Part shown: piece after piece, positions 37,607 to 58,679 of the stretch
How the letters are laid out: the number at the start of each line of letters is the position of its first letter
Position numbering within the stretch: position 1 is the first letter of the stretch
Virus record (IMG/VR): IMGVR_UViG_3300045988_054218
DNA: 64,000 bases
Origin: a virus
Strand: one strand, 5' to 3'
Translations under genes and position numbers: made by a program
The notes under the pieces: generated by a model
What the model was told of the DNA's origin: nothing
Seen by the model: the letters and a program-made list of their open reading frames with translations, nothing else
The model's database searches: none

Positions 37607-39346
37607 TTAACTAATAAACATAAAATCAGCGAAGCGACCTTTCTTTCTCTTGCGCTTACTATCTTCTTCTTGCTTGATATAATATAGACCGTATTCAAAA
37701 GCTGAGAATTTATCCTTTGTAATAGATTTATTAGCTTGCTTCAAGATAATATTAACGCCTTCATTTTCCTCGCGCAAATTCAACATTTCATCTCGTAGAA
37801 TAGAAGTATAAGTGAAAGGTTGTAAATATGCCGCTCTCTCTTCTGGTTTCATTGCTTGACCCTTTTTAGTTCCTAACAACTTGTTCTTCGCAATTCTTTC
37901 GTCAATTAAGAATTTCACCTTGCCAGCCCGCATTTGCGTCTATGCATTACTGTGAGCTTCGGTGTTAATTGGCGCATTAGCTTTAATCTCATAAATAGCA
38001 TCATATTCTGTTCTATCAGTTCTATACTTCTTATACTCTCCATCATCATCATTCTATACGCTAAAATCAGGGAAGAAATCATCTGTCTCAGGGTCAACTT
38101 GAGACTTGACCATATAGTCCATTAGACCAGCGCCCAAACCATTACCGTCGATAACAACGGTCTTAGCCTTGAACTAATAATATAACTTTTTAATTTTAAT
38201 TGCCTAATCTTCGAAGTGCTCGTCGTCCATTGTAAACATATTAACCAATGATTTAATTGCAGGTCCCTAAGACTGTGGTGTAACTTTGAAAACACAAATT
38301 ACACTTTGACATTTTTTACGTCCAACGTCCACAGACAAAACATAATAAGCTCTATCAGAAGAACGACCAGAAGCTTCATATTCTGGTTGTTGTAATTTAC
38401 GATTACGGTCAAATACTTCTCCATTGAAGAACGCATCCTCAACTGTACCGCTCCAACGAGATTCATACTCTCGATCAAAAGAAGCCTCATTGAAGGTGCC
38501 ATCCTATTTTAGCTCTTGAACAAAGTTTTTACTTTGTAGACCAACTAATACAGGAATACGCCAAGTACCGCCCATAACAATCGCTTTCTCTGGATCAAGA
38601 ACCATACGAATCAAGAGCTGAATCAACTTATTGTACGGGAAAGTATTCTTCCAGCCTGCGGTGGTGACATAGATTTGACTCTTATTCAAAGTTTCTGCCT
38701 CTTGAACAGTACCATCCATACACTCACGATCAATGTTCATTAAAGGAATAAGAACTTCGTTCAAGATGGTGCCATCGACACCAACACATTCCTCAATTAG
38801 GCCTCCGTGACGACGCTTACCACGAGAACTCTCTCTTGCAGCAACGTTATCAAAGTAAGAACCATTCTTAAAGATATACTTACAATAGTCTTTACCTTCT
38901 TGAGTCTTACCTCTTCGCCAGTCAATTTCTCTTTCAAACGCAGGAATCTTCTAACAAATTTCCTAAACCTTTTCTTTGGCAATGCCAGCAGCCTGTTCCT
39001 TACCACCAGAAGTAACGAACAATTTACTTCTGGGATATAAAATACATCTACACATTAGTACCATGATAGATAAGAAAGACTTAGAATAAGCACGCGGGAA
39101 TACCATGTATACATATTTATAGCGCATAGCCGCCCGCAAGAACACTCTTTGATAGAAGAAGAAATTCAATTCCTTCTTACGAGTAAGATCTCCGCCAGTC
39201 TAGAGGAAATCTACGAAAATATCAGGATATTCTCTCCAAAAAGCAATGTATTGACGCGCAGCAGGAATGATTGCCCGCACGCGCTCTTCAGATAGGCCAA
39301 TCTTCTTATTTTTATTGGAGAGGTTTAATAAATCAGCTAATGCCAT
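37607..39346 (-). CDS. terL: Terminase large subunit (579 aa, TAG-recoded)
   Basis: ATG at 39346 follows GGAGGTGAAATAA. ORF-track pieces 38504-38764 and 37607-37933 are in the same frame. Has a deviant Walker A-like motif, FPRAYSKSF, and a C-terminal nuclease-like part. TAA at 37607. Confidence 0.85.
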
Positions 39347-40522
39347 TTATTTCACCTCCCGCATATATTCTTTATCCTTCTCAGCTTCCTATTGTTTCAT
39401 TTCTTCAAACTCTTCATAGTCAGCATCAGTTAATACTTTATCTTCTGGATAATCGTAAATCTCATTATCTTCTTCATCGCCGCCATCAACGTCAATCTTA
39501 GCTTCTCTTTCTTTATCTTGAGCAATAGCTCTAACAGATGCGTCAATCATGTTGCCAAGATTCATTTCTTCTGTAACAAGAGAGTAAGTATAGTGTTGAA
39601 GGTCTTGTAAAACTTTATCTACCTTATCCATCGGTCCATCGGTGTAATAACGAGGAATAAATCCTTCACGCTCGCAAATTGTAACTAATTCACCAATAGA
39701 ATCTACAAATTCACCAGATTCAGCTTTATTCTGCGCGGCTGTGAGCTTAGCGCTCTTCATCAAGCTATCATACATCTTGATCATCTTCTGCGCACCATCG
39801 ACATCGCCGCAGTCTAGAAGCTAGTTAGATTTCAATGAAGTCTTACAAATCATGATAAGAGTATCTTTCATACCCGCTCCTTGAATATCATATGAAGCCA
39901 TCATATCATTATATAATTGCTCCAATCGCACCCATTCCTCTGGGCGATATCCTCGACCCCACTTAAGTCTCAACATCACTTTATCTTCTTCGGTAAGTTC
40001 GTCTGAAAAATCATCATCAGCCTCTGAAGGATCGTAATATTCAGGAGTACCTACAGCCTCTTGTGGCTCAGTTAAAATTTTTGGCTTAGGCGGAGTTCTA
40101 TCCGTCGCAAGCTCAGTTTCAATTTCTTCGCCAGTCATACCTTGCGCTTTCATTTGATTAATCTTACGCATACGCTGCTCTTCTTCAAGCGCTTCGGTAT
40201 CTGCCCAAGAATACTAACTCCACTATTTAAGTTTCATTTTAGATAAGTAACGGCCAATAATAGTTAAGCCAGTTACTTTTTTAGGATCTTTACCATATTT
40301 CTCCAGTAAAGCATCCCATTCTTCTTTAATATAAGGCACATCAATTTCTTGTAAAATCCATTTATACGTTTCTGGGTCCCAGTTATCGACGTGCATGGTT
40401 AAACATTTCTTGCAAATATCCATCTTTCCATCTGGTGGATATTTCTCTACGTTCTTAGAAGTGTAGAATTCACTATCATTCATAGTCTTTCCGCACTTCT
40501 TGCAAAAATGCTGTCCAGCCAT
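39347..40522 (-). CDS. Putative terminase small subunit / packaging accessory protein with an N-terminal zinc ribbon (391 aa)
   Basis: ORF-track pieces 40223-40531, 39821-40171 and 39389-39784 share one frame and join across TAG. The stop TAA abuts the terL ATG. CKKCGK...CKKC motif. The functional call is positional. Confidence 0.5.
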
Positions 40523-40527
40523 ACGAA

Positions 40528-41580
40528 TCAACCTCTTTTCTTATTACGGCATTTCTTACAAATAGAATACCAATTATCTTTACTTGTCTTATTCTTTGAA
40601 AAGAAAAGATTGTTCGCTGGCTTAATCTGTCCACATTTAGAACATTTTTTCATTGGGTAACCACGTTTAGTGTACTCCCAAATTAAGAAATCTTCTTTAG
40701 CCTATTCTGCAATTACCTTTGGAATCTTATTGCGCCACAGACTAGAAATATATTCTACACTATAGGTTTGATGAAATTCTTCATCAAGTAATTTTTGAAT
40801 CTCGCTATTCGGTTTACCATCAATCTTCCACTCAACAATTCTATCATAGATAGGATAATCAGCAAGAGCCTTAGTACATAAATTATCAAAGTCTTGCATT
40901 AAATACCAAGTATCTCCCTCAAACTAATCCCAACTATCTTCCTTGAGTTTAGAATAATTACATAAAATAGCAGATACTACTTTAGTATCCATTAATGAAA
41001 TGCCATCTACAACGATTTCAGAACCATCTAAATAACTCTTATCATCAAGAGGTAATGATGTTCTAGCAGATCTCGTTAATCGACACGGGATAATTGGCTT
41101 CTAATAAGCCTATTTAATAATATATTGATCTTTCCGCATCTCAATTAACGCTTTCTTCATCATAAAAGCAGTCTTACCAGAGGCGTGCTTCGCTGCTGCT
41201 TCCCAAGCGTTTATAGTATCTCGCAGTTGTTTCAAACAGGGGATTGTCTCTAAATCTTTATCTGTAATCGAAATCTTTGGTTGAAAAATTACATTTTTAT
41301 TTTCATTAACTAAATTATAAATACCATCTTCGCCGTTCTCTAACTAACTAACAAGGCCCTCGAAAGAACATTCTCTCTTGTTTACCGTAGTCATACGGTT
41401 ATCTGTCAGTATATTGCGTTCTTTTCGCTCTTGCTTTTCCATGCAGAGAACAAGATAATTACCTAAAATTTCAAGATACGCGGGACTAATATCCGGCGTT
41501 TCCGCAATTATCTTTTCAACTAGCGCTTTACGCTCTTCTGGAGACTCTAGAGTATAATCTAATTTAATCACACTTGTCAT
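40528..41580 (-). CDS. First gene of the late operon: possible transcription regulator with a C-terminal zinc ribbon (350 aa)
   Basis: ORF-track pieces 41344-41580 and 40702-40899 are in one frame and join across TAG codons. Ends ...CSKCGQIKP...CKKCRNKKRG with TGA at 40528-40530. Confidence 0.55.
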
Positions 41581-41595
41581 CTCCTTTATGCTTAT

Positions 41596-41624
41596 ATAAT
41601 AACAAAAAAAAACTGGTGTGTCAA
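41596..41624 (-). promoter_or_regulatory. Promoter of the late/structural operon (TTGACA-17-TATTAT)
   Basis: The minus strand reads TTGACACACCAGTTTTTTTTTGTTATTAT, about 15 nt upstream of the SD of 40528-41580. Confidence 0.6.
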
Positions 41625-41630
41625 ATCTAT

Positions 41631-41659
41631 TTGACCAAATTAAATTATTTTGTTATAAT
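41631..41659 (+). promoter_or_regulatory. Divergent promoter (TTGACC-17-TATAAT) for the FolD/Pth2 cluster
   Basis: TTGACCAAATTAAATTATTTTGTTATAAT. Its -35 box lies 7 bp from the -35 box of the divergent late promoter. Confidence 0.6.
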
Positions 41660-41692: not shown

Positions 41693-42019
41693 ATGAACTT
41701 TTGCGACATTCCAGCTGAAGCGTTTCCTAAAGGCGCATAGTTCTATCATAATGTAACCGTAATAGTATTTTCTGTGGCTGAAGATATATGGGATGAAGAT
41801 TTTGACTCTATTTGGTATCTTGACTAGTTAACCGCACCAGAACCAAAAGCAATCCTATTCTTCAAAGAAGAAAGAGAGGTTATCAACGATACTGATGTAG
41901 ATGCTTTCTATGATTGCGATGATGAACAAGAGTGCGATTGGTTACTAGATTATTATGAGAATTGCATAGTCGAAGTAGATCCAGATGGAACGGTTTCATG
42001 GTATGAAGGAGAATTTTAA
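41693..42019 (+). CDS. Acidic hypothetical protein (108 aa, 2 TAG)
   Basis: Not in the ORF track. ATG at 41693 follows AAAGGAAG. Hand translation ends at TAA 42017-42019, overlapping the folD start (TAATG). Confidence 0.6.
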
Positions 42020-42804
42020 TGAACCAAATTAACATAAAAGAATATTTTAAAACAGAGAAGGAGAAATTGCGGCTGGCCGTTATTGAGCATGATTATGAGC
42101 CTCCTTCTCTCACGATTGTAGATGCCACAGACGGCGACGTCGGCAATCAGATTTATATTAAAAAGAAGATTGAAGATTTCGAATCTGTGGGTTGGCCTGT
42201 AAAGGTTGTTAGGCCGAAAGACAAGTTTGATTTACATTATCTATTAAGCTATGGTCTTGAGACAGATTGTGTAATTGTTCAAATGCCAACGGCAGAAAGA
42301 TTTGATTTCGACATTGAAGATATTCCATCGTACTTTGATTGTGATGGCTTGACTAAGAACGCTCTTGTTCTTCCCGCCACTGTTCGAGGTATTATTGATT
42401 ATCTTGATGATTGTGGTTTTGATTATACAGGTAAAACTGCTGTTGTTCTTGGCAGAAGCGATATTGTCGGTAAGCCTATGGCAAAGGCTTTGCTAGATAG
42501 AGATATGACTGTTTCCGTTTGTCACAGTAAAACGAACTATGGAGATAAAGAATATCTTCTTCATAACGCAGATCTAGTAATCTGTGCTACTGGACAGCCG
42601 CAGTCTATTCATAGAGAACAGTGCGAATCTGCTATTGTTGTCGATGTCGGGATTAGCCGACTCAATGGCAAAATCGTTGGAGACTTCGTAGAGGACGAAA
42701 ATAATATTGTCGGAGAAGCTTGGTCTACTCCAGTCCCCGGCGGTGTGGGTCTATTGACAAGATTGGGGTTGATGAAAAATTGTCTAGATCTCAAGGTATT
42801 GTAA
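42019..42804 (+). CDS. folD: Methylenetetrahydrofolate dehydrogenase/cyclohydrolase (FolD-like)
   Basis: 261 aa with ...TAVVLGRSDIVGKPMAKALL...VSVCHSKT...ADLVICATGQP...VVDVGISRL..KIVGDF...STPVPGGVGLLT..., which matches the FolD signature blocks. Confidence 0.85.
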   Translation: MNQINIKEYFKTEKEKLRLAVIEHDYEPPSLTIVDATDGDVGNQIYIKKKIEDFESVGWPVKVVRPKDKFDLHYLLSYGLETDCVIVQMPTAERFDFDIEDIPSYFDCDGLTKNALVLPATVRGIIDYLDDCGFDYTGKTAVVLGRSDIVGKPMAKALLDRDMTVSVCHSKTNYGDKEYLLHNADLVICATGQPQSIHREQCESAIVVDVGISRLNGKIVGDFVEDENNIVGEAWSTPVPGGVGLLTRLGLMKNCLDLKVL

Positions 42805-42863
42805 TTGGTAATATAGGAGTAACTATTTTAGACCTAGAAACAGAATTTGAACGAGCAAAAATT

Positions 42864-43103
42864 ATGAGATATCCTCTTGGTGATTGGTTGCATAATAAAA
42901 TTTCTCGTCAAGAGTATAAAGAAAAAATGGCTATTTATCGAGATAAACAATCTCAATATGTAGCCAAAAGGCTCTTTGAAATCTATGGATTTGAAATCGC
43001 TCAAAAGTATAAACCAAATTATGTGCAAGATTTTATTCCCTGCATGGGAGCAGATGGGCAATGTAATCTATATTGCAAGAAGTTTGGAAAGTGCCAAGAA
43101 TAA
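42864..43103 (+). CDS. Small Cys-containing hypothetical protein (79 aa; start uncertain)
   Basis: Part of ORF-track 42720-43103. First ATG at 42864. A TAGGAG SD lies further upstream, so a non-ATG start near 42825 is possible. Confidence 0.5.
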   Translation: MRYPLGDWLHNKISRQEYKEKMAIYRDKQSQYVAKRLFEIYGFEIAQKYKPNYVQDFIPCMGADGQCNLYCKKFGKCQE

Positions 43104-43191
43104 AAGTTTACACACTATATTTGAAAAATAGGGCAGAACCAATATCCAGTTCTGCCCAACATCATTTCATTTTAAGGAGGCCGCAATAAAA

Positions 43192-43623
43192 ATGGAAAAG
43201 CATTTCAAGCAGTTGATTATCGCAAGACGTGATTTGAATATGTCACCTGGCAAGTTAGCGGCGCAAGTATCTCATGCATCTTCTGCTTTTCTCATTGAGA
43301 TGATTAGAGATTCTTGGCCGGAAAAAGTACAAGACTTTTATCAAGTAAATTATAGACTAGATAAAGATGTTTATGATAATTGGATTAACGACGGAGTGGC
43401 CAAGGTAGTATGTGGCGCCCGCAATAAAGGAAAATTAGAAAAGGCCATTGAGAAGGCTAAAGAATTAGGCATGATTGAAGGTGTTGATTACTTTCCTATT
43501 GTTGATGCTTGCAGAACTGAGTTAACTCCAGAGTCCCCGCAGGGGACTTTGACGTGTGTAGGATTTAGACCTATGGAGGCAGAGAAGATTGATGAAATTG
43601 GGAAAGATTTTCATTTGTATTAA
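43192..43623 (+). CDS. pth2: Peptidyl-tRNA hydrolase, Pth2 (archaeal/eukaryotic type) family
   Basis: 143 aa following TAAGGAGG. KQLIIARRDLNMSPGKLAAQVSHAS...VDACRTELTPES..GTLTCVGFRP...IDEIGKDFHLY matches the Pth2 pattern (K.v..vR.DL.M..GK.aAQ..HA ... DAG.TE......T..g.gP). Confidence 0.8.
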   Translation: MEKHFKQLIIARRDLNMSPGKLAAQVSHASSAFLIEMIRDSWPEKVQDFYQVNYRLDKDVYDNWINDGVAKVVCGARNKGKLEKAIEKAKELGMIEGVDYFPIVDACRTELTPESPQGTLTCVGFRPMEAEKIDEIGKDFHLY

Positions 43624-43834
43624 CATCTTAGTTTTTTCTCTTTTGATGTTAACTGGATGCACGGAGAAATGGCCTAGAATTATTTATCAAAATACTAGTT
43701 ACAGATTTGACGAATATAATCGTACTATTGTTTTAGATGATGGATATGTATTGAATGGCGGTCATAGCTATGATATTGTGGAAACCGAGGATGGTTATGA
43801 CCTTATTCTTCATTTTGTGGAGGAACAGCCATGA
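43592..43834 (+). CDS. Small secreted lipoprotein (80 aa)
   Basis: Signal peptide MKLGKIFICINILVFSLLMLTGC with lipobox LTGC. Overlaps the end of pth2. Confidence 0.7.
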   Translation: MKLGKIFICINILVFSLLMLTGCTEKWPRIIYQNTSYRFDEYNRTIVLDDGYVLNGGHSYDIVETEDGYDLILHFVEEQP

Positions 43835-44055
43835 AAAGAATTATTAAAAATAACTATTAGCCAAATAGTGTGCGTGTGATTTGCCCTATTTGCAAGAGTG
43901 TATTTGAATTTAACCAGGAGTTTGACTTAGAGGCAGAAGAATTTTCGGTATATAGGAATGGAGAGGTTTATATCGAACGATAGATTAGCTGCCCATGTTG
44001 CACGAAGATGCTTAGGATAGAGGGTACGTATCCTTATCATATAAGAAAACCGTAA
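43831..44055 (+). CDS. Zinc-ribbon protein (74 aa, 2 TAG)
   Basis: Not in the ORF track. ATG at 43831 follows GGAGGAAC (ATGA overlap). CPIC...CPCC motif. TAA at 44053-44055. Confidence 0.6.
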
Positions 44056-44331
44056 TCTGAAATCAAAAATGGTTTTCGAGATTTTTATGGCGTGGGAGAA
44101 CGAGTTTGTGAAAATTTTCACGCTTTTTCCCGAAATACACGCCCCCGTACTGTCGCACTTCATCACGCTAAAGCACTACAGTTAAACAGCTACCCCTACT
44201 TTAGTTAGCTAAAGCGTCTGTCGCTATTATTATGTATCGCGCGCGCGTAAAGAGGAATTGGTCAATCTGCACAACAGGATCGGCACTCACTTGTGCAAAT
44301 TGACGAAACGCAGAAAATTGCAAAAAAGTTG

Positions 44332-44360
44332 TTGACAAGCAAGCAAGGCTATGCTATCAT
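44332..44360 (+). promoter_or_regulatory. Early promoter, first of a tandem pair (TTGACA-17-TATCAT)
   Basis: Exact 17-bp spacer. Followed by a short leader containing the hairpin GGCAAG..CTTGCC and an A-rich tract. Confidence 0.55.
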
Positions 44361-44421
44361 GCAATCACAGGCAAGGGAAAACAGCTTGCCAAACACACCG
44401 AAAAAAAATAAAAAAAAAGTC

Positions 44422-44450
44422 TTGACAAGCAAGGCAAGGTGTGGTAAACT
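44422..44450 (+). promoter_or_regulatory. Early promoter, second of a tandem pair (TTGACA-17-TAAACT)
   Basis: Exact 17-bp spacer with an A-tract UP-like region upstream. Lies 60 nt upstream of the ATG at 44510. Confidence 0.5.
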
Positions 44451-57893: not shown

Positions 57894-58679
57894 ATGGTAA
57901 ATACGCTTGAACTTCGCGGCATTGAGACTTACTCGCCAGAGATTCAAACCTTCTTACGAGAGATTGAGAAGTCTTTCCTGCAGGTGCTCAATAACTGCGT
58001 TCCCGCAGACCAGCAAGAGAAAGAAGCTATCCAGTTGCGGGATACAGTAGAGGGCATCGGCAACTGTCTCGAAATGCATTGCGCTCCCGGTGAAGTGTTT
58101 AACTGTTTTTCTTGCGGAGCTTTCAAGGAAGCTTATCACGCTTCTGACTCTATCGTAGTAAAGTTCTGCTCAACTGACAACGAAACTAAGAGAGAGCAGG
58201 CTCTTCTCGCCGCAGCGGAGGAGACTAATATTCTGGAGCTGTTCGTGCCTACCTTTTTCCACCAGCTCCCTGTTAATCTGCCTGTCACTCAACTCGATGA
58301 TACAAATTCTTCTCGATATACCTATGACTCCCACTATCATACATGGTGCCAGAACCCCGATATTGAAGCCTTCGAGTTAAATGATCTGGAGATTCAACCT
58401 ATTGTTGTCCCTGCTTCTCATGTTGCTTATGAGAATATTGGCTGGGACGAACAAGGCGAGGTTATTCCGGGTATCTCCATGACTGTCGTGCGGCGTATTC
58501 CTACGCGTAATCTTACTTGGCTGAAGTCTATTGTTGAGAATTATGGTAAAGAGTTCTTCGAAAAGTTCGCTATCTTCTGTGACGATTGGCATATTTGGGA
58601 TCTGCATGAAGATAACATTGGGTTCTTGCGGACGCCCGAGGTCGAACTCCCTATCATCCTTGATTGGATGAGCGACTAA
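57894..58679 (+). CDS. Hypothetical protein, possibly protein-kinase-like fold (261 aa)
   Basis: ATG follows AAGGAGAGGAG. Lies within ORF-track 57690-58679. IVVKF, WDLHEDNIGF (HxDxxxxN-like) and ILDWMSD resemble kinase/APH catalytic motifs. Confidence 0.6.
   Translation: MVNTLELRGIETYSPEIQTFLREIEKSFLQVLNNCVPADQQEKEAIQLRDTVEGIGNCLEMHCAPGEVFNCFSCGAFKEAYHASDSIVVKFCSTDNETKREQALLAAAEETNILELFVPTFFHQLPVNLPVTQLDDTNSSRYTYDSHYHTWCQNPDIEAFELNDLEIQPIVVPASHVAYENIGWDEQGEVIPGISMTVVRRIPTRNLTWLKSIVENYGKEFFEKFAIFCDDWHIWDLHEDNIGFLRTPEVELPIILDWMSD

What the first reader, a model, noticed from the sequence alone, without database searches (positions are those of the whole stretch)
41693..44055. FolD and a Pth2-type peptidyl-tRNA hydrolase sit together beside the late promoter in a recoding phage
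The first + strand operon after the divergent promoter pair encodes:
- a clear FolD homologue (42019-42804), which supplies 5,10-methylene- and 10-formyl-THF and hence feeds dTMP, purine and fMet-tRNA formylation;
- a clear Pth2-family peptidyl-tRNA hydrolase (43192-43623), a type normally archaeal or eukaryotic rather than the bacterial Pth1;
- a lipobox lipoprotein and two TAG-containing small proteins.

The link to recoding is a hypothesis. In a phage whose mRNAs are full of TAG, ribosomes pausing at poorly suppressed TAG codons would be expected to release peptidyl-tRNA. A dedicated hydrolase could recycle those tRNAs, or counter tRNA-targeting host defences.
Basis: partly seen in the sequence, partly recalled or inferred. 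Interest (0 to 1): 0.7.

Follow-up and report, generated by a model that had tools for sequence, protein, structure and literature searches.

The report
Phage FolD and Pth2, not recoding-specific
The phage does encode a folate enzyme (FolD) next to an archaeal-type peptidyl-tRNA hydrolase (Pth2), but relatives that use the ordinary genetic code carry the same pair and some recoded relatives have lost Pth2, so it is an ordinary accessory cassette rather than a recoding adaptation.

Summary
Window 41693-44055 (+) is a compact operon behind a conserved divergent promoter pair, in a phage that reads TAG as Gln. It encodes orf108 (2 TAG), FolD, orf79, Pth2, a lipobox lipoprotein and a 74-aa zinc-ribbon protein (2 TAG).

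- **Pth2:** it passes Pfam, folds as Pth2 (pLDDT 92.5; the top 13 PDB matches are all Pth2) and keeps the aligned active-site Lys, Asp and Thr.
- **FolD:** it aligns end to end with solved FolDs and keeps their motifs, although its N-terminal domain scores below the Pfam cut-off.

The proposed link to recoding is not supported.

- Cultured standard-code relatives (Enterococcus phages EF1 and VRE9_4; terminase about 50% identical) carry ThyA-DHFR-Pth2-FolD beside a tRNA array.
- Pth2 also occurs in C. difficile phiCD211-like phages, Bacillus phage G and jumbo phages.
- 30 of 57 metagenomic homologues (45-55% identical) end in TAG themselves.
- The recoded relative Phass-1 has no detectable Pth2.
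- Within the recoded lineage itself, Pth2 is absent, fragmented or catalytically dead in 5 of 26 contigs.
- No suppressor tRNA lies nearby.

One point remains for the hypothesis: the Pth2 block avoids TAG, so it can be translated under either code.

Most likely this is an inherited, dispensable tRNA-recycling and one-carbon accessory cassette. Low interest.

The parts
41596..41624 (-). Sigma-A-type promoter (TTGACA-17-TATTAT) of the structural (yonH-to-yonA-like) operon
   Evidence: It matches 11 of 12 consensus positions. The core is invariant in six genomes from two clades.
41631..41659 (+). Sigma-A-type promoter (TTGACC-17-TATAAT, with TG extension) of the accessory operon
   Evidence: It matches 11 of 12 consensus positions and is conserved across clades.
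41693..42019 (+). orf108: acidic protein of unknown function with 2 in-frame TAG (41738, 41825); its stop overlaps the FolD start (TAATG)
   Evidence: It is conserved in clade A1 with both TAGs retained. No Pfam or PHROG hit.
42019..42804 (+). FolD homologue (methylene-THF dehydrogenase / methenyl-THF cyclohydrolase), 261 aa, no TAG
   Evidence: PF02882 1.4e-38. NCBIfam FolD models score 1e-36, below their equivalog cut-offs. PDB 3ngl E 1.6e-29 over residues 16-256, with Y46-x3-K50, Q88, D109, GRSxIVGKP and PVPGGVG present. phrog_7320.
42864..43103 (+). orf79: small Cys-rich protein of unknown function, no TAG
   Evidence: conserved in clade A1. No family hit.
43131..43157 (.). 9-bp GC-rich hairpin between orf79 and Pth2; on the - strand it scans as an intrinsic terminator
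   Evidence: Folding gives -16.1 kcal/mol, z -1.96.
43192..43623 (+). Pth2-family peptidyl-tRNA hydrolase, 143 aa, no TAG, AGGAGG 9 nt upstream of the ATG
   Evidence: PF01981 87 bits. pLDDT 92.5; Foldseek top 13 hits are Pth2, TM 0.82-0.85. K21, D105 and T109 are invariant in 20 homologues and align with the GK and D-x3-T of S. solfataricus 1xty.
43592..43834 (+). 80-aa lipoprotein (signal peptide plus lipobox LTG|C); overlaps the 3' end of Pth2
   Evidence: Sequence. Conserved in most relatives.
43831..44055 (+). 74-aa zinc-ribbon protein (CPIC...CPCC) with 2 in-frame TAG; its ATG overlaps the lipoprotein stop (ATGA)
   Evidence: phrog_2834, E 6.9e-5.

Best explanation
The locus is a variable accessory-gene cassette. 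It sits between the structural operon and the TAG-free early block of a large SPbeta-like (YonF-terminase) siphophage of gut Clostridia.

- **FolD** interconverts 5,10-methylene-, 5,10-methenyl- and 10-formyl-THF. This feeds phage dTMP and purine synthesis; in relatives it sits with ThyA and DHFR.
- **Pth2** hydrolyses the ester bond of N-blocked aminoacyl-tRNA that is free of the ribosome, returning tRNA to the pool. It would add to the host's Pth1 during the translation burst of infection.

Both genes are shared with relatives that use the standard code, and both are dispensable. They are not an adaptation to TAG recoding.

**Shown:** gene identities, the Pth2 fold, conserved active-site residues, distribution, and losses. 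**Inferred:** enzymatic activity, the in vivo substrate, and the timing of expression.
For: **Identity.**

**The phage group.** The terminase is 50% identical to those of Enterococcus phages EF1, H1 and VRE9_4. Relatives carry YonB, YonD and YonG domains.

**Standard-code relatives.**
- VRE9_4 and EF1 carry ThyA - endolysin - DHFR - Pth2 (PF01981, 60-62 bits) - 3 or 4 small ORFs - FolD - tRNA array.
- Those loci hold 0-0.8 TAG per 1000 aa.
- EF1-type Pth2 is present in all 7 Enterococcus phages of this group that are in the collection, 6 C. difficile phiCD211-like records and Bacillus phage G.
- Pth2 also occurs in jumbo phages (PMC7824862; PMC3622015).

**Metagenomic homologues.** 57 IMG/VR homologues at 45-55% identity lie in loci with 0-4.7 TAG per 1000 aa. 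30 of them end in TAG themselves.

**Recoded phages without a working Pth2.**
- Recoded Phass-1 has none by profile search (best E 0.77).
- Inside the recoded lineage, 5 of 26 informative contigs lack a functional Pth2 and 2 lack FolD.

**No code-change context.** No tRNA lies within 10 kb of Pth2 in this lineage, and none in the 64-kb window.
Against: - No expression or activity data exist.
- The Pth2 block avoids TAG significantly. In the window, 0 of 20 Gln-type codons are TAG against 30 of 90 in late genes (p = 0.0015). In clade A2, PARG+orf109+Pth2 have 0 of 13 against 47 of 86 (p = 0.00013). Such avoidance would also be expected of a gene that must act before the code switch.
- One other Pth2 locus (L059) carries a CTA suppressor tRNA.
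- Pth2 neighbours a microbial-type PARG gene, which hints at counter-defence rather than housekeeping.
- The window's Pth2 and FolD are only about 25% and 35% identical to the Enterococcus phage proteins, so shared ancestry of the pair is not proven.
Confidence: 0.55

Rival explanations
1. Counter-defence. Pth2 (with the neighbouring PARG macrodomain enzyme, the lipoprotein and small unknown ORFs) is an anti-defence or superinfection-exclusion island. Pth2 would reverse host toxins that block tRNA, such as GNAT toxins that N-acetylate aminoacyl-tRNA, or clear peptidyl remnants after anticodon-nuclease attack. PARG would remove defensive ADP-ribosylation.
For: - Pth reverses TacT-type tRNA acetylation (PMC9241777).
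- Iyer et al. proposed that phage PTH2 acts in rescue after tRNA cleavage (PMC7824862).
- PARG_cat_microb (94.6 bits) is coupled to orf109-Pth2 in clade A2 and lies just downstream in some A1 genomes.
- The cassette varies between genomes and genes are lost patchily, which is typical of anti-defence genes.
- The block is TAG-free, so it can be translated under the host code.
Against: - There are no hits to PADLOC models for any cassette protein, and no known anti-defence family match. PADLOC holds defence models, not anti-defence models.
- In the Enterococcus phages Pth2 sits among nucleotide-metabolism genes and tRNAs, not among obvious anti-defence genes.
- The case rests purely on guilt by association.
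Confidence: 0.28
2. Recoding support. Pth2 recycles peptidyl-tRNA released at poorly suppressed TAG codons, or otherwise assists the switch from the standard code to TAG=Gln.
For: - Pth2 is present in 21 of 26 contigs of this recoded lineage.
- It is TAG-free even where neighbouring FolD and orf113 are TAG-rich.
- A second candidate recoded lineage has Pth2 near a CTA suppressor tRNA.
Against: - The same gene, and the same FolD pairing, occurs in standard-code relatives.
- 30 of 57 related Pth2 genes end in TAG.
- Phass-1 has no Pth2 by profile search.
- No Lak or crAss-like record appears among the tblastn hits at E<=1e-3.
- Pth2 is lost or inactivated in 5 of 26 recoded contigs.
- It is not linked to a suppressor tRNA, release factor or aaRS as in described code-change operons (bioRxiv 10.1101/2021.08.26.457843, which does not mention any such hydrolase).
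- From established knowledge: RF1 at UAG hydrolyses the peptidyl-tRNA on the ribosome, so unsuppressed TAG yields deacylated tRNA, which is not a Pth substrate.
Confidence: 0.1
3. FolD and Pth2 form a functional pair acting on the initiator tRNA. Archaeal-type Pth2, unlike bacterial Pth1, accepts fMet-tRNAfMet (my recollection of Fromant et al. 2003, not retrievable here). FolD supplies the 10-formyl-THF used for formylation. Together they would tune translation initiation during infection.
For: FolD and Pth2 lie within about 0.4-1.6 kb of each other in two lineages: Group A and the Enterococcus EF1-like phages. The proteins are only 25-35% identical between the two lineages.
Against: - Most Pth2-bearing phages have no FolD within 10 kb. 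C. difficile phages have Pth2 without FolD, and Lak phages have FolD without detectable Pth2.
- Within the lineage each gene is lost independently of the other.
- Accessory genes commonly cluster at the same hot spots for no functional reason.
Confidence: 0.05

Closest known systems
ThyA-DHFR-Pth2-FolD region of Enterococcus phages EF1, EF5, VRE9_1 to VRE9_4 and H1 (cultured, standard code)
   Same: They belong to the same phage supergroup (YonF-type terminase about 50% identical, genomes of about 135-142 kb). A PF01981 Pth2 of about 133 aa lies within about 1.3 kb of a FolD gene.
   Different: - These phages use the standard code.
- Gene order is Pth2 then FolD, embedded among ThyA, DHFR and a tRNA array rather than beside the structural-operon promoter.
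- Protein identity to the window is only about 25% (Pth2) and 35% (FolD).
- Their FolD has a full-scoring N-terminal domain.
PTH2 of jumbo and large phages (RaK2 ORF188, XacN1, Atu_ph07, SCTP-2, Bacillus phage G gp325, C. difficile phiCD211)
   Same: They are stand-alone Pth2-fold proteins in phages of bacteria whose own enzyme is Pth1. They have already been described and interpreted as tRNA recycling or ribosome rescue (PMC7824862, PMC3622015).
   Different: Genome types and hosts differ. Identity to the window protein is 25-33%. There is no FolD neighbour.
Archaeal and eukaryotic Pth2 (S. solfataricus 1XTY, A. fulgidus 3ERJ, P. horikoshii 1WN2, human Bit1/PTRH2 1Q7S)
   Same: The fold matches (TM 0.82-0.85 normalised to the target) and the aligned Lys, Asp and Thr are conserved.
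   Different: - The window protein has an insertion of about 25 residues after helix 1 (about 75 residues in some relatives).
- It scores below the NCBIfam equivalog cut-offs.
- It is encoded by a phage of Clostridia.
Code-change operons of recoded phages (suppressor tRNA + release factor +/- aaRS; Borges et al., bioRxiv 10.1101/2021.08.26.457843)
   Same: It is encoded in standard-code-compatible (TAG-free) form in a TAG-recoded phage.
   Different: - No suppressor tRNA, release factor or aaRS lies nearby.
- The gene is not restricted to recoded phages and is dispensable within them.
Bacterial and archaeal bifunctional FolD (e.g. T. acidophilum 3NGL, E. coli 1B0A)
   Same: It has two-domain FolD architecture, with the YxxxK, Q and D catalytic motifs and the GxSxxVGxP dinucleotide-binding motif.
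   Different: The N-terminal domain is shortened and divergent (PF00763 12.3 bits against a cut-off of 32.8). The protein scores far below the equivalog cut-offs (125 against at least 333 bits).

Membership tests
Pth2 (PF01981, archaeal/eukaryotic-type peptidyl-tRNA hydrolase) | Profile match above the curated Pfam threshold over the whole domain | tested here: met
   87.1 bits against a cut-off of 23; residues 5-143 cover profile positions 1-115 of 115.
Pth2 (PF01981, archaeal/eukaryotic-type peptidyl-tRNA hydrolase) | Equivalog-level match to archaeal Pth2 (NCBIfam NF003314, TIGR00283) | tested here: not met
   80.3 bits against 126, and 69.2 against 82. It is a divergent phage subfamily with an insertion.
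Pth2 (PF01981, archaeal/eukaryotic-type peptidyl-tRNA hydrolase) | Pth2 alpha/beta fold | tested here: met
   AlphaFold2 pLDDT 92.5, pTM 0.85. The top 13 Foldseek PDB hits are all Pth2 structures, probability 1.00, TM 0.82-0.85.
Pth2 (PF01981, archaeal/eukaryotic-type peptidyl-tRNA hydrolase) | Active-site Lys and Asp (S. solfataricus K18 and D86; the identity of the catalytic residues is recalled from Fromant et al. 2003 and was not retrievable here) | tested here: met
   K21, D105 and T109 align with the GK and D-x3-T of 1xty. They are invariant in 20 homologues.
Pth2 (PF01981, archaeal/eukaryotic-type peptidyl-tRNA hydrolase) | Hydrolysis of N-blocked aminoacyl-tRNA, or complementation of pth(ts) | not testable with these tools
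   This needs an enzyme assay or a genetic complementation experiment.
FolD (bifunctional methylene-THF dehydrogenase / methenyl-THF cyclohydrolase) | C-terminal NAD(P)-binding domain PF02882 | tested here: met
   132.1 bits against a cut-off of 27.
FolD (bifunctional methylene-THF dehydrogenase / methenyl-THF cyclohydrolase) | N-terminal catalytic domain PF00763 above threshold | tested here: not met
   12.3 bits against a cut-off of 32.8. Even so, phmmer aligns residues 16-256 to solved FolDs.
FolD (bifunctional methylene-THF dehydrogenase / methenyl-THF cyclohydrolase) | Catalytic YxxxK, plus the Gln and Asp of the substrate pocket; GxSxxVGxP and PVPGGVG motifs | tested here: met
   Y46/K50 (IYIKKK), Q88 (VQMP), D109 (DCDG), GRSDIVGKP and PVPGGVG are all visible in the alignments and the sequence. 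The roles of these residues come from established FolD and MTHFD1 literature (my own knowledge).
FolD (bifunctional methylene-THF dehydrogenase / methenyl-THF cyclohydrolase) | NCBIfam equivalog score | tested here: not met
   The best score is 125.4 bits against a cut-off of 355.
Recoding ('code-change') module of alternatively coded phages | Physical linkage to a suppressor tRNA, release factor or aaRS | tested here: not met
   There are no tRNAs in the 64-kb window and none within 10 kb of Pth2 in 27 related loci.
Recoding ('code-change') module of alternatively coded phages | Restricted to, or enriched in, recoded phages | tested here: not met
   Pth2 is present in standard-code Enterococcus, C. 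difficile, Bacillus and jumbo phages. 30 of 57 homologues end in TAG. It is absent from recoded Phass-1. No formal lineage-corrected statistic was possible.
Recoding ('code-change') module of alternatively coded phages | Retained by all recoded members of the lineage | tested here: not met
   5 of 26 informative contigs lack a working copy: absent (L192), remnant (L182), frameshifted (L177, L181), catalytic Lys and Asp lost (L186).
Recoding ('code-change') module of alternatively coded phages | Encoded in standard-code-compatible form | tested here: met
   Pth2 has no in-frame TAG in any of the 27 loci. Avoidance at the level of the block gives p = 0.0015 and 0.00013; for Pth2 alone it is not significant.
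Bacterial lipoprotein | N-terminal signal peptide ending in a lipobox [LVI][ASTVI][GAS]C | tested here: met
   MKLGKIFICINILVFSLLMLTG|C, read directly from the sequence. No dedicated predictor was available.

The most novel reading that the evidence does not exclude
In the recoded lineage an inherited accessory cassette has been partitioned by codon use. orf113 and FolD have become TAG-gated, so they are made only after the code switch. PARG-orf109-Pth2 are kept strictly TAG-free, so they are made under either code. On this reading Pth2, perhaps together with PARG, acts at or before the switch. It could protect the tRNA pool from host tRNA-directed defences, or clear N-blocked or peptidyl-tRNA produced while suppressor tRNA and RF1 compete. 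That would be a co-opted, non-essential helper of recoding rather than a dedicated one.
Probability: 0.12. Interest if true: 0.55.

Novelty: new member of a known kind. Interest (0 to 1): 0.2.

Why it matters
The result mainly removes a tempting but unsupported story. Phage Pth2 and FolD are recurrent accessory genes of large Firmicutes siphophages and jumbo phages, whatever genetic code they use.

What is mildly useful:
- It documents a widespread, well-conserved Pth2 subfamily in gut Clostridia phages: 880 database clusters at E<=0.001, and 203 confirmed IMG/VR loci.
- It shows a FolD-Pth2 neighbourhood shared by cultured Enterococcus phages, in which Pth2 function could be tested genetically.
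- It shows within-operon partitioning of TAG use, which illustrates how recoding can gate individual cistrons.

Tried and rejected
- **Nucleotide search.** blastn of the 3-kb operon against GenBank phages gave only one 98-nt weak hit, so protein searches were needed.
- **RNA elements.** ARAGORN and Rfam on the whole window found nothing, so there is no local suppressor tRNA or RNA element.
- **The 221-aa extended reading of Pth2 (42958-43623, through 2 TAG).** Some database entries use it (P0006). I rejected it because all homologues start at M-(Y/E)KQLII, an AGGAGG lies 9 nt upstream of 43192, and a hairpin lies in the supposed extension.
- **A possible second FolD.** ORF 57894-58679 has the same length (261 aa) but no Pfam hit.
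- **PADLOC** scan of the cassette proteins gave no hits.
- **Neighbours of Pth2 in a standard-code locus (L045).** Pfam found only an AAA ATPase and a PAPS-reductase-like protein, which was uninformative.
- **Literature retrieval.** The primary Pth2 biochemistry papers (Fromant 2003; Powers 2005) are not held. The identity of the catalytic residues and the fMet-tRNA substrate claim therefore rest on my memory.
- **The crude ORF-length ratio** as a recoding test was too noisy. I replaced it with TAG density and position within long ORFs, and with the stop codon of Pth2 itself.
- **Baiting relatives with the YonG-like protein** recovered only the same recoded lineage, with no closer standard-code relatives. 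The code comparison therefore had to use more distant cultured relatives.
Full report
**1. What the window is.** Treating TAG as sense raises the summed length of ORFs of at least 100 aa from 19,983 to 30,850 aa. The longest ORF grows from 421 to 2,907 aa. Treating TGA as sense lengthens no long ORF.

The - strand from 3482 to 41580 is one long block of TAG-containing genes. In related contigs these carry the Pfam domains YonB, YonD_N and YonG_N. The 579-aa protein (37607-39346) is a YonF-type large terminase. It is about 50% identical to the terminases of Enterococcus phages VRE9_4, H1 and EF1 and of Geobacillus virus E3, and 44.6% identical to that of the TAG-recoded gut phage Phass-1.

TAG positions in late proteins align chiefly with TAG or Gln in orthologues: 92 TAG, then 53 Gln in one direction and 104 Gln in the other. 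So TAG encodes Gln.

From about 44.2 kb the + strand changes character. GC rises from 0.37 to 0.43-0.47. In-frame TAG is almost absent from the + strand ORFs, and TAG is almost never a stop there: 2 of 28 ORFs, both doubtful. This is a code-neutral, presumably early block. The closest bacterial-bin match is a 148,971-bp contig binned with an Oscillospiraceae MAG.

- **Promoters.** Two back-to-back promoters, 41631-41659 (+) and 41624-41596 (-), each match 11 of 12 consensus positions. Their -35 and -10 hexamers are invariant across two clades whose flanking proteins are only 70-77% identical. Whether either is 'late' cannot be told from sequence. Both look like strong sigma-A promoters.
- **End of the unit.** A 48-nt direct repeat follows at 44309-44446. 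Each copy holds a TTGACA promoter, which marks the start of the next transcription unit.

**3. Are the two enzymes real?**

*Pth2.*
- PF01981 scores 87 bits against a cut-off of 23, end to end.
- It falls below the NCBIfam equivalog cut-offs: 80 against 126, and 69 against 82.
- phmmer finds seven solved Pth2 sequences.
- An AlphaFold2 model built on 20 homologues has pLDDT 92.5. Its 13 best PDB matches are all Pth2 structures, with TM 0.82-0.85 and probability 1.00.
- K21, D105 and T109 align with the GK and D-x3-T of the S. solfataricus enzyme and are invariant in the family alignment. That these are the catalytic residues is my recollection of Fromant et al. 2003, which I could not retrieve.
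- The phage subfamily carries an extra segment of about 25 residues after helix 1, about 75 residues in some members.

*FolD.*
- The C-terminal domain is unambiguous (132 bits). The N-terminal domain scores only 12.3 bits against 32.8.
- Even so, the protein aligns from residue 16 to 256 with Thermoplasma FolD (E 1.6e-29). It keeps Y46-x3-K50, Q88, D109, GRSDIVGKP, CHSKT and PVPGGVG.

Both are therefore probably active enzymes. Both are divergent, and both belong to existing phage protein families, phrog_1866 and phrog_7320.

**4. The recoding hypothesis tested by distribution.**

*(a) Cultured standard-code relatives.*
- Enterococcus phages VRE9_4 and EF1 carry thymidylate synthase - endolysin - DHFR - a 132/133-aa 'hypothetical protein' - 3 or 4 small ORFs - FolD - tRNA array.
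- That hypothetical protein is Pth2, PF01981 at 60-62 bits.
- These loci show 0-0.8 TAG per 1000 aa, against 13.7 in the structural region of Phass-1.
- The Phass-1 paper also states that EF1 is not recoded (PMC10607447).
- The EF1-type Pth2 occurs in all 7 Enterococcus phages of this group that are in the collection, in 6 C. difficile phiCD211-like records and in Bacillus phage G.
- The window's type also hits XacN1, SCTP-2, Atu_ph07, Xoo-sp13 and two Pseudomonas phages.
- Phage PTH2 has been discussed in print (PMC7824862, PMC3622015).

*(b) Metagenomic homologues.*
- An IMG/VR scan confirmed 203 Pth2 loci, of which 80 were kept.
- 24 of these, plus two contigs fetched by direct look-up and one GTDB contig, form the window's own lineage, 'Group A' (27 loci besides the window). 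They share the late518-TerL-YonG-late350 <> orf108-FolD-...-Pth2 synteny and hold 7-19 TAG per 1000 aa.
- The other 56 loci (Pth2 45-55% identical, GC about 0.32, contigs up to about 180 kb) share none of these neighbours. They hold 0-4.7 TAG per 1000 aa, mostly at ORF ends.
- The stop codon of Pth2 itself is TAA in 25 of 25 scorable Group A genes. It is TAG in 30 of the 57 scored outside Group A, and in 13 of 34 bacterial-genome loci.

*(c) A recoded relative without Pth2.* Phass-1 has three CTA suppressor tRNAs and 36 tRNAs in all. A profile search of all six frames of the whole genome, with TAG read as sense, found no Pth2 (best E 0.77). The same search recovered the positives at 1e-39 to 1e-69.

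*(d) Losses inside the recoded lineage.* Baiting with the YonG-like protein, regardless of Pth2, gave 26 contigs that cover the cassette.
- Pth2 is intact in 21.
- It is absent in L192, a remnant in L182, multiply frameshifted in L177 and frameshifted in L181.
- In L186 it is full-length but without the GK Lys or the catalytic Asp.
- FolD is missing in two contigs (L185, L186).

*(e) No code-change context.* No tRNA gene lies within 10 kb of Pth2 in any Group A locus, and none in the 64-kb window. The published survey of recoded phages lists suppressor tRNAs, release factors and aaRS as code-change genes and does not mention such a hydrolase (bioRxiv 10.1101/2021.08.26.457843).

*(f) Mechanism, from established knowledge.* At an unsuppressed UAG, RF1 hydrolyses the peptidyl-tRNA on the ribosome. 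The product is deacylated tRNA, which is not a Pth substrate. Extra drop-off would arise only if RF1 were blocked while suppressor tRNA was limiting.

**5. What still favours a connection.** Pth2 has no in-frame TAG in any of the 27 Group A loci.

- In clade A2 the operon's first gene has 3-8 TAG in about 110 codons across members. In L003 it has 8 TAG and no CAA or CAG at all.
- In the same clade FolD has 2-6 TAG, yet PARG, orf109 and Pth2 have none.
- Counting Gln-type codons, that block has 0 of 13 against 47 of 86 in late genes (p = 0.00013).
- In the window, FolD+orf79+Pth2+lipoprotein have 0 of 20 against 30 of 90 (p = 0.0015).
- Pth2 alone is not significant (p = 0.1-0.18).

So these cistrons can be translated before and after the switch. 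That fits any early or constitutive function and is not specific evidence for a role in recoding.

One further locus, L059, has Pth2 next to a tRNA array that includes a CTA suppressor, and some of its ORFs have mid-ORF TAGs. It may be a second recoded lineage with Pth2.

**6. Most likely function.** I commit to an inherited accessory cassette.

- FolD supplies one-carbon folates for phage nucleotide synthesis. In the Enterococcus relatives it sits with ThyA and DHFR.
- Pth2 adds N-blocked-aminoacyl-tRNA hydrolase capacity during infection.

My confidence in this is about 0.55. The main rival, at about 0.28, is a counter-defence role.
- Pth reverses tRNA-acetylating toxins (PMC9241777).
- Iyer et al. 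proposed PTH2 for rescue after tRNA cleavage (PMC7824862).
- In clade A2 Pth2 is translationally coupled to a microbial-type PARG (94.6 bits). In several A1 genomes PARG lies just downstream.
- The patchy losses are typical of anti-defence genes.

PADLOC gave no hits, so this rival rests on context only. The recoding-support reading keeps about 0.1, and a FolD-Pth2 initiator-tRNA pairing about 0.05.

**7. Novelty and score.** Phage-encoded Pth2 and FolD are both already annotated and discussed. This is a new member, in a TAG-recoded Clostridia phage lineage, of a known kind.

The conserved FolD-Pth2 neighbourhood in the EF1-like phages and the cistron-level partitioning of TAG are modest additions. 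Interest is 0.2.

Noticed in passing
window 44309-44356 and 44399-44446: A 48-nt direct repeat (71% identity, 90-nt spacing). Each copy contains a TTGACA-17-TATCAT or TAAACT promoter with a TG extension. It lies exactly where GC jumps from 0.37 to 0.47 and the TAG-free early block begins.
   Followed up: partly
window 43131-43157: A 9-bp GC-rich hairpin lies between orf79 and Pth2. On the - strand it is followed by a T-run and scans as an intrinsic terminator inside a + strand operon. Folding gives -16.1 kcal/mol, z -1.96. Only clade A1 has it.
   Followed up: partly
L003 7238-7579 (also L084, L019-L025): The first gene of the cassette in clade A2 (orf113) has 3-8 in-frame TAG in about 110 codons across members. 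In L003 it has 8 TAG and no CAA or CAG at all, which is far denser than any structural gene. This looks like deliberate TAG gating of a possibly toxic acidic protein.
   Followed up: partly
L003 8933-9715; L007 10661-11440; L009, L010, L013: A microbial-type poly(ADP-ribose) glycohydrolase (PARG_cat_microb, 94.6 bits), always TAG-free. It overlaps orf109-Pth2 in clade A2 and lies downstream of the lipoprotein in some A1 genomes. It is absent from the window itself.
   Followed up: partly
window 41596-41624 (-) and the alignment: The structural (terminase, portal, capsid) operon starts from an invariant consensus sigma-A-type promoter rather than an obviously phage-specific late promoter. Late timing may therefore be set by TAG suppression rather than by transcription.
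   Followed up: no
L186 7644-8039: A full-length Pth2 homologue that has lost the GK lysine and the catalytic aspartate (MEQLIILHSDISIEEASAVLPF...IRANKEL). It is either a decaying gene or a pseudo-enzyme. FolD is also missing from this contig.
   Followed up: partly
window 40528-40650 and 40400-40522 (- strand): The C-terminus of the 350-aa protein and the N-terminus of the YonG-like protein share a zinc-ribbon motif, CxKCG-x(8-10)-F[FY][ST]KN-x(9-12)-ICKKC. This suggests a duplicated DNA-binding module at the head of the packaging operon.
   Followed up: no
L059 (IMGVR_UViG_3300021255_000108), 7210-7689 and 10186-10280: A Pth2 gene (48% identical) lies 2.5 kb from a 14-tRNA array that includes a CTA-anticodon tRNA. 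Several nearby ORFs have mid-ORF TAGs. This may be an independent TAG-recoded lineage.
   Followed up: partly
GenBank Lak phages (e.g. MK250016 6626-7474): All 15 TAG-recoded Prevotella Lak phage records carry a FolD homologue (30-32% identical) but gave no Pth2 hit with either query. FolD is also found in Fusobacterium, Listeria, Vibrio and Wolbachia phages.
   Followed up: no
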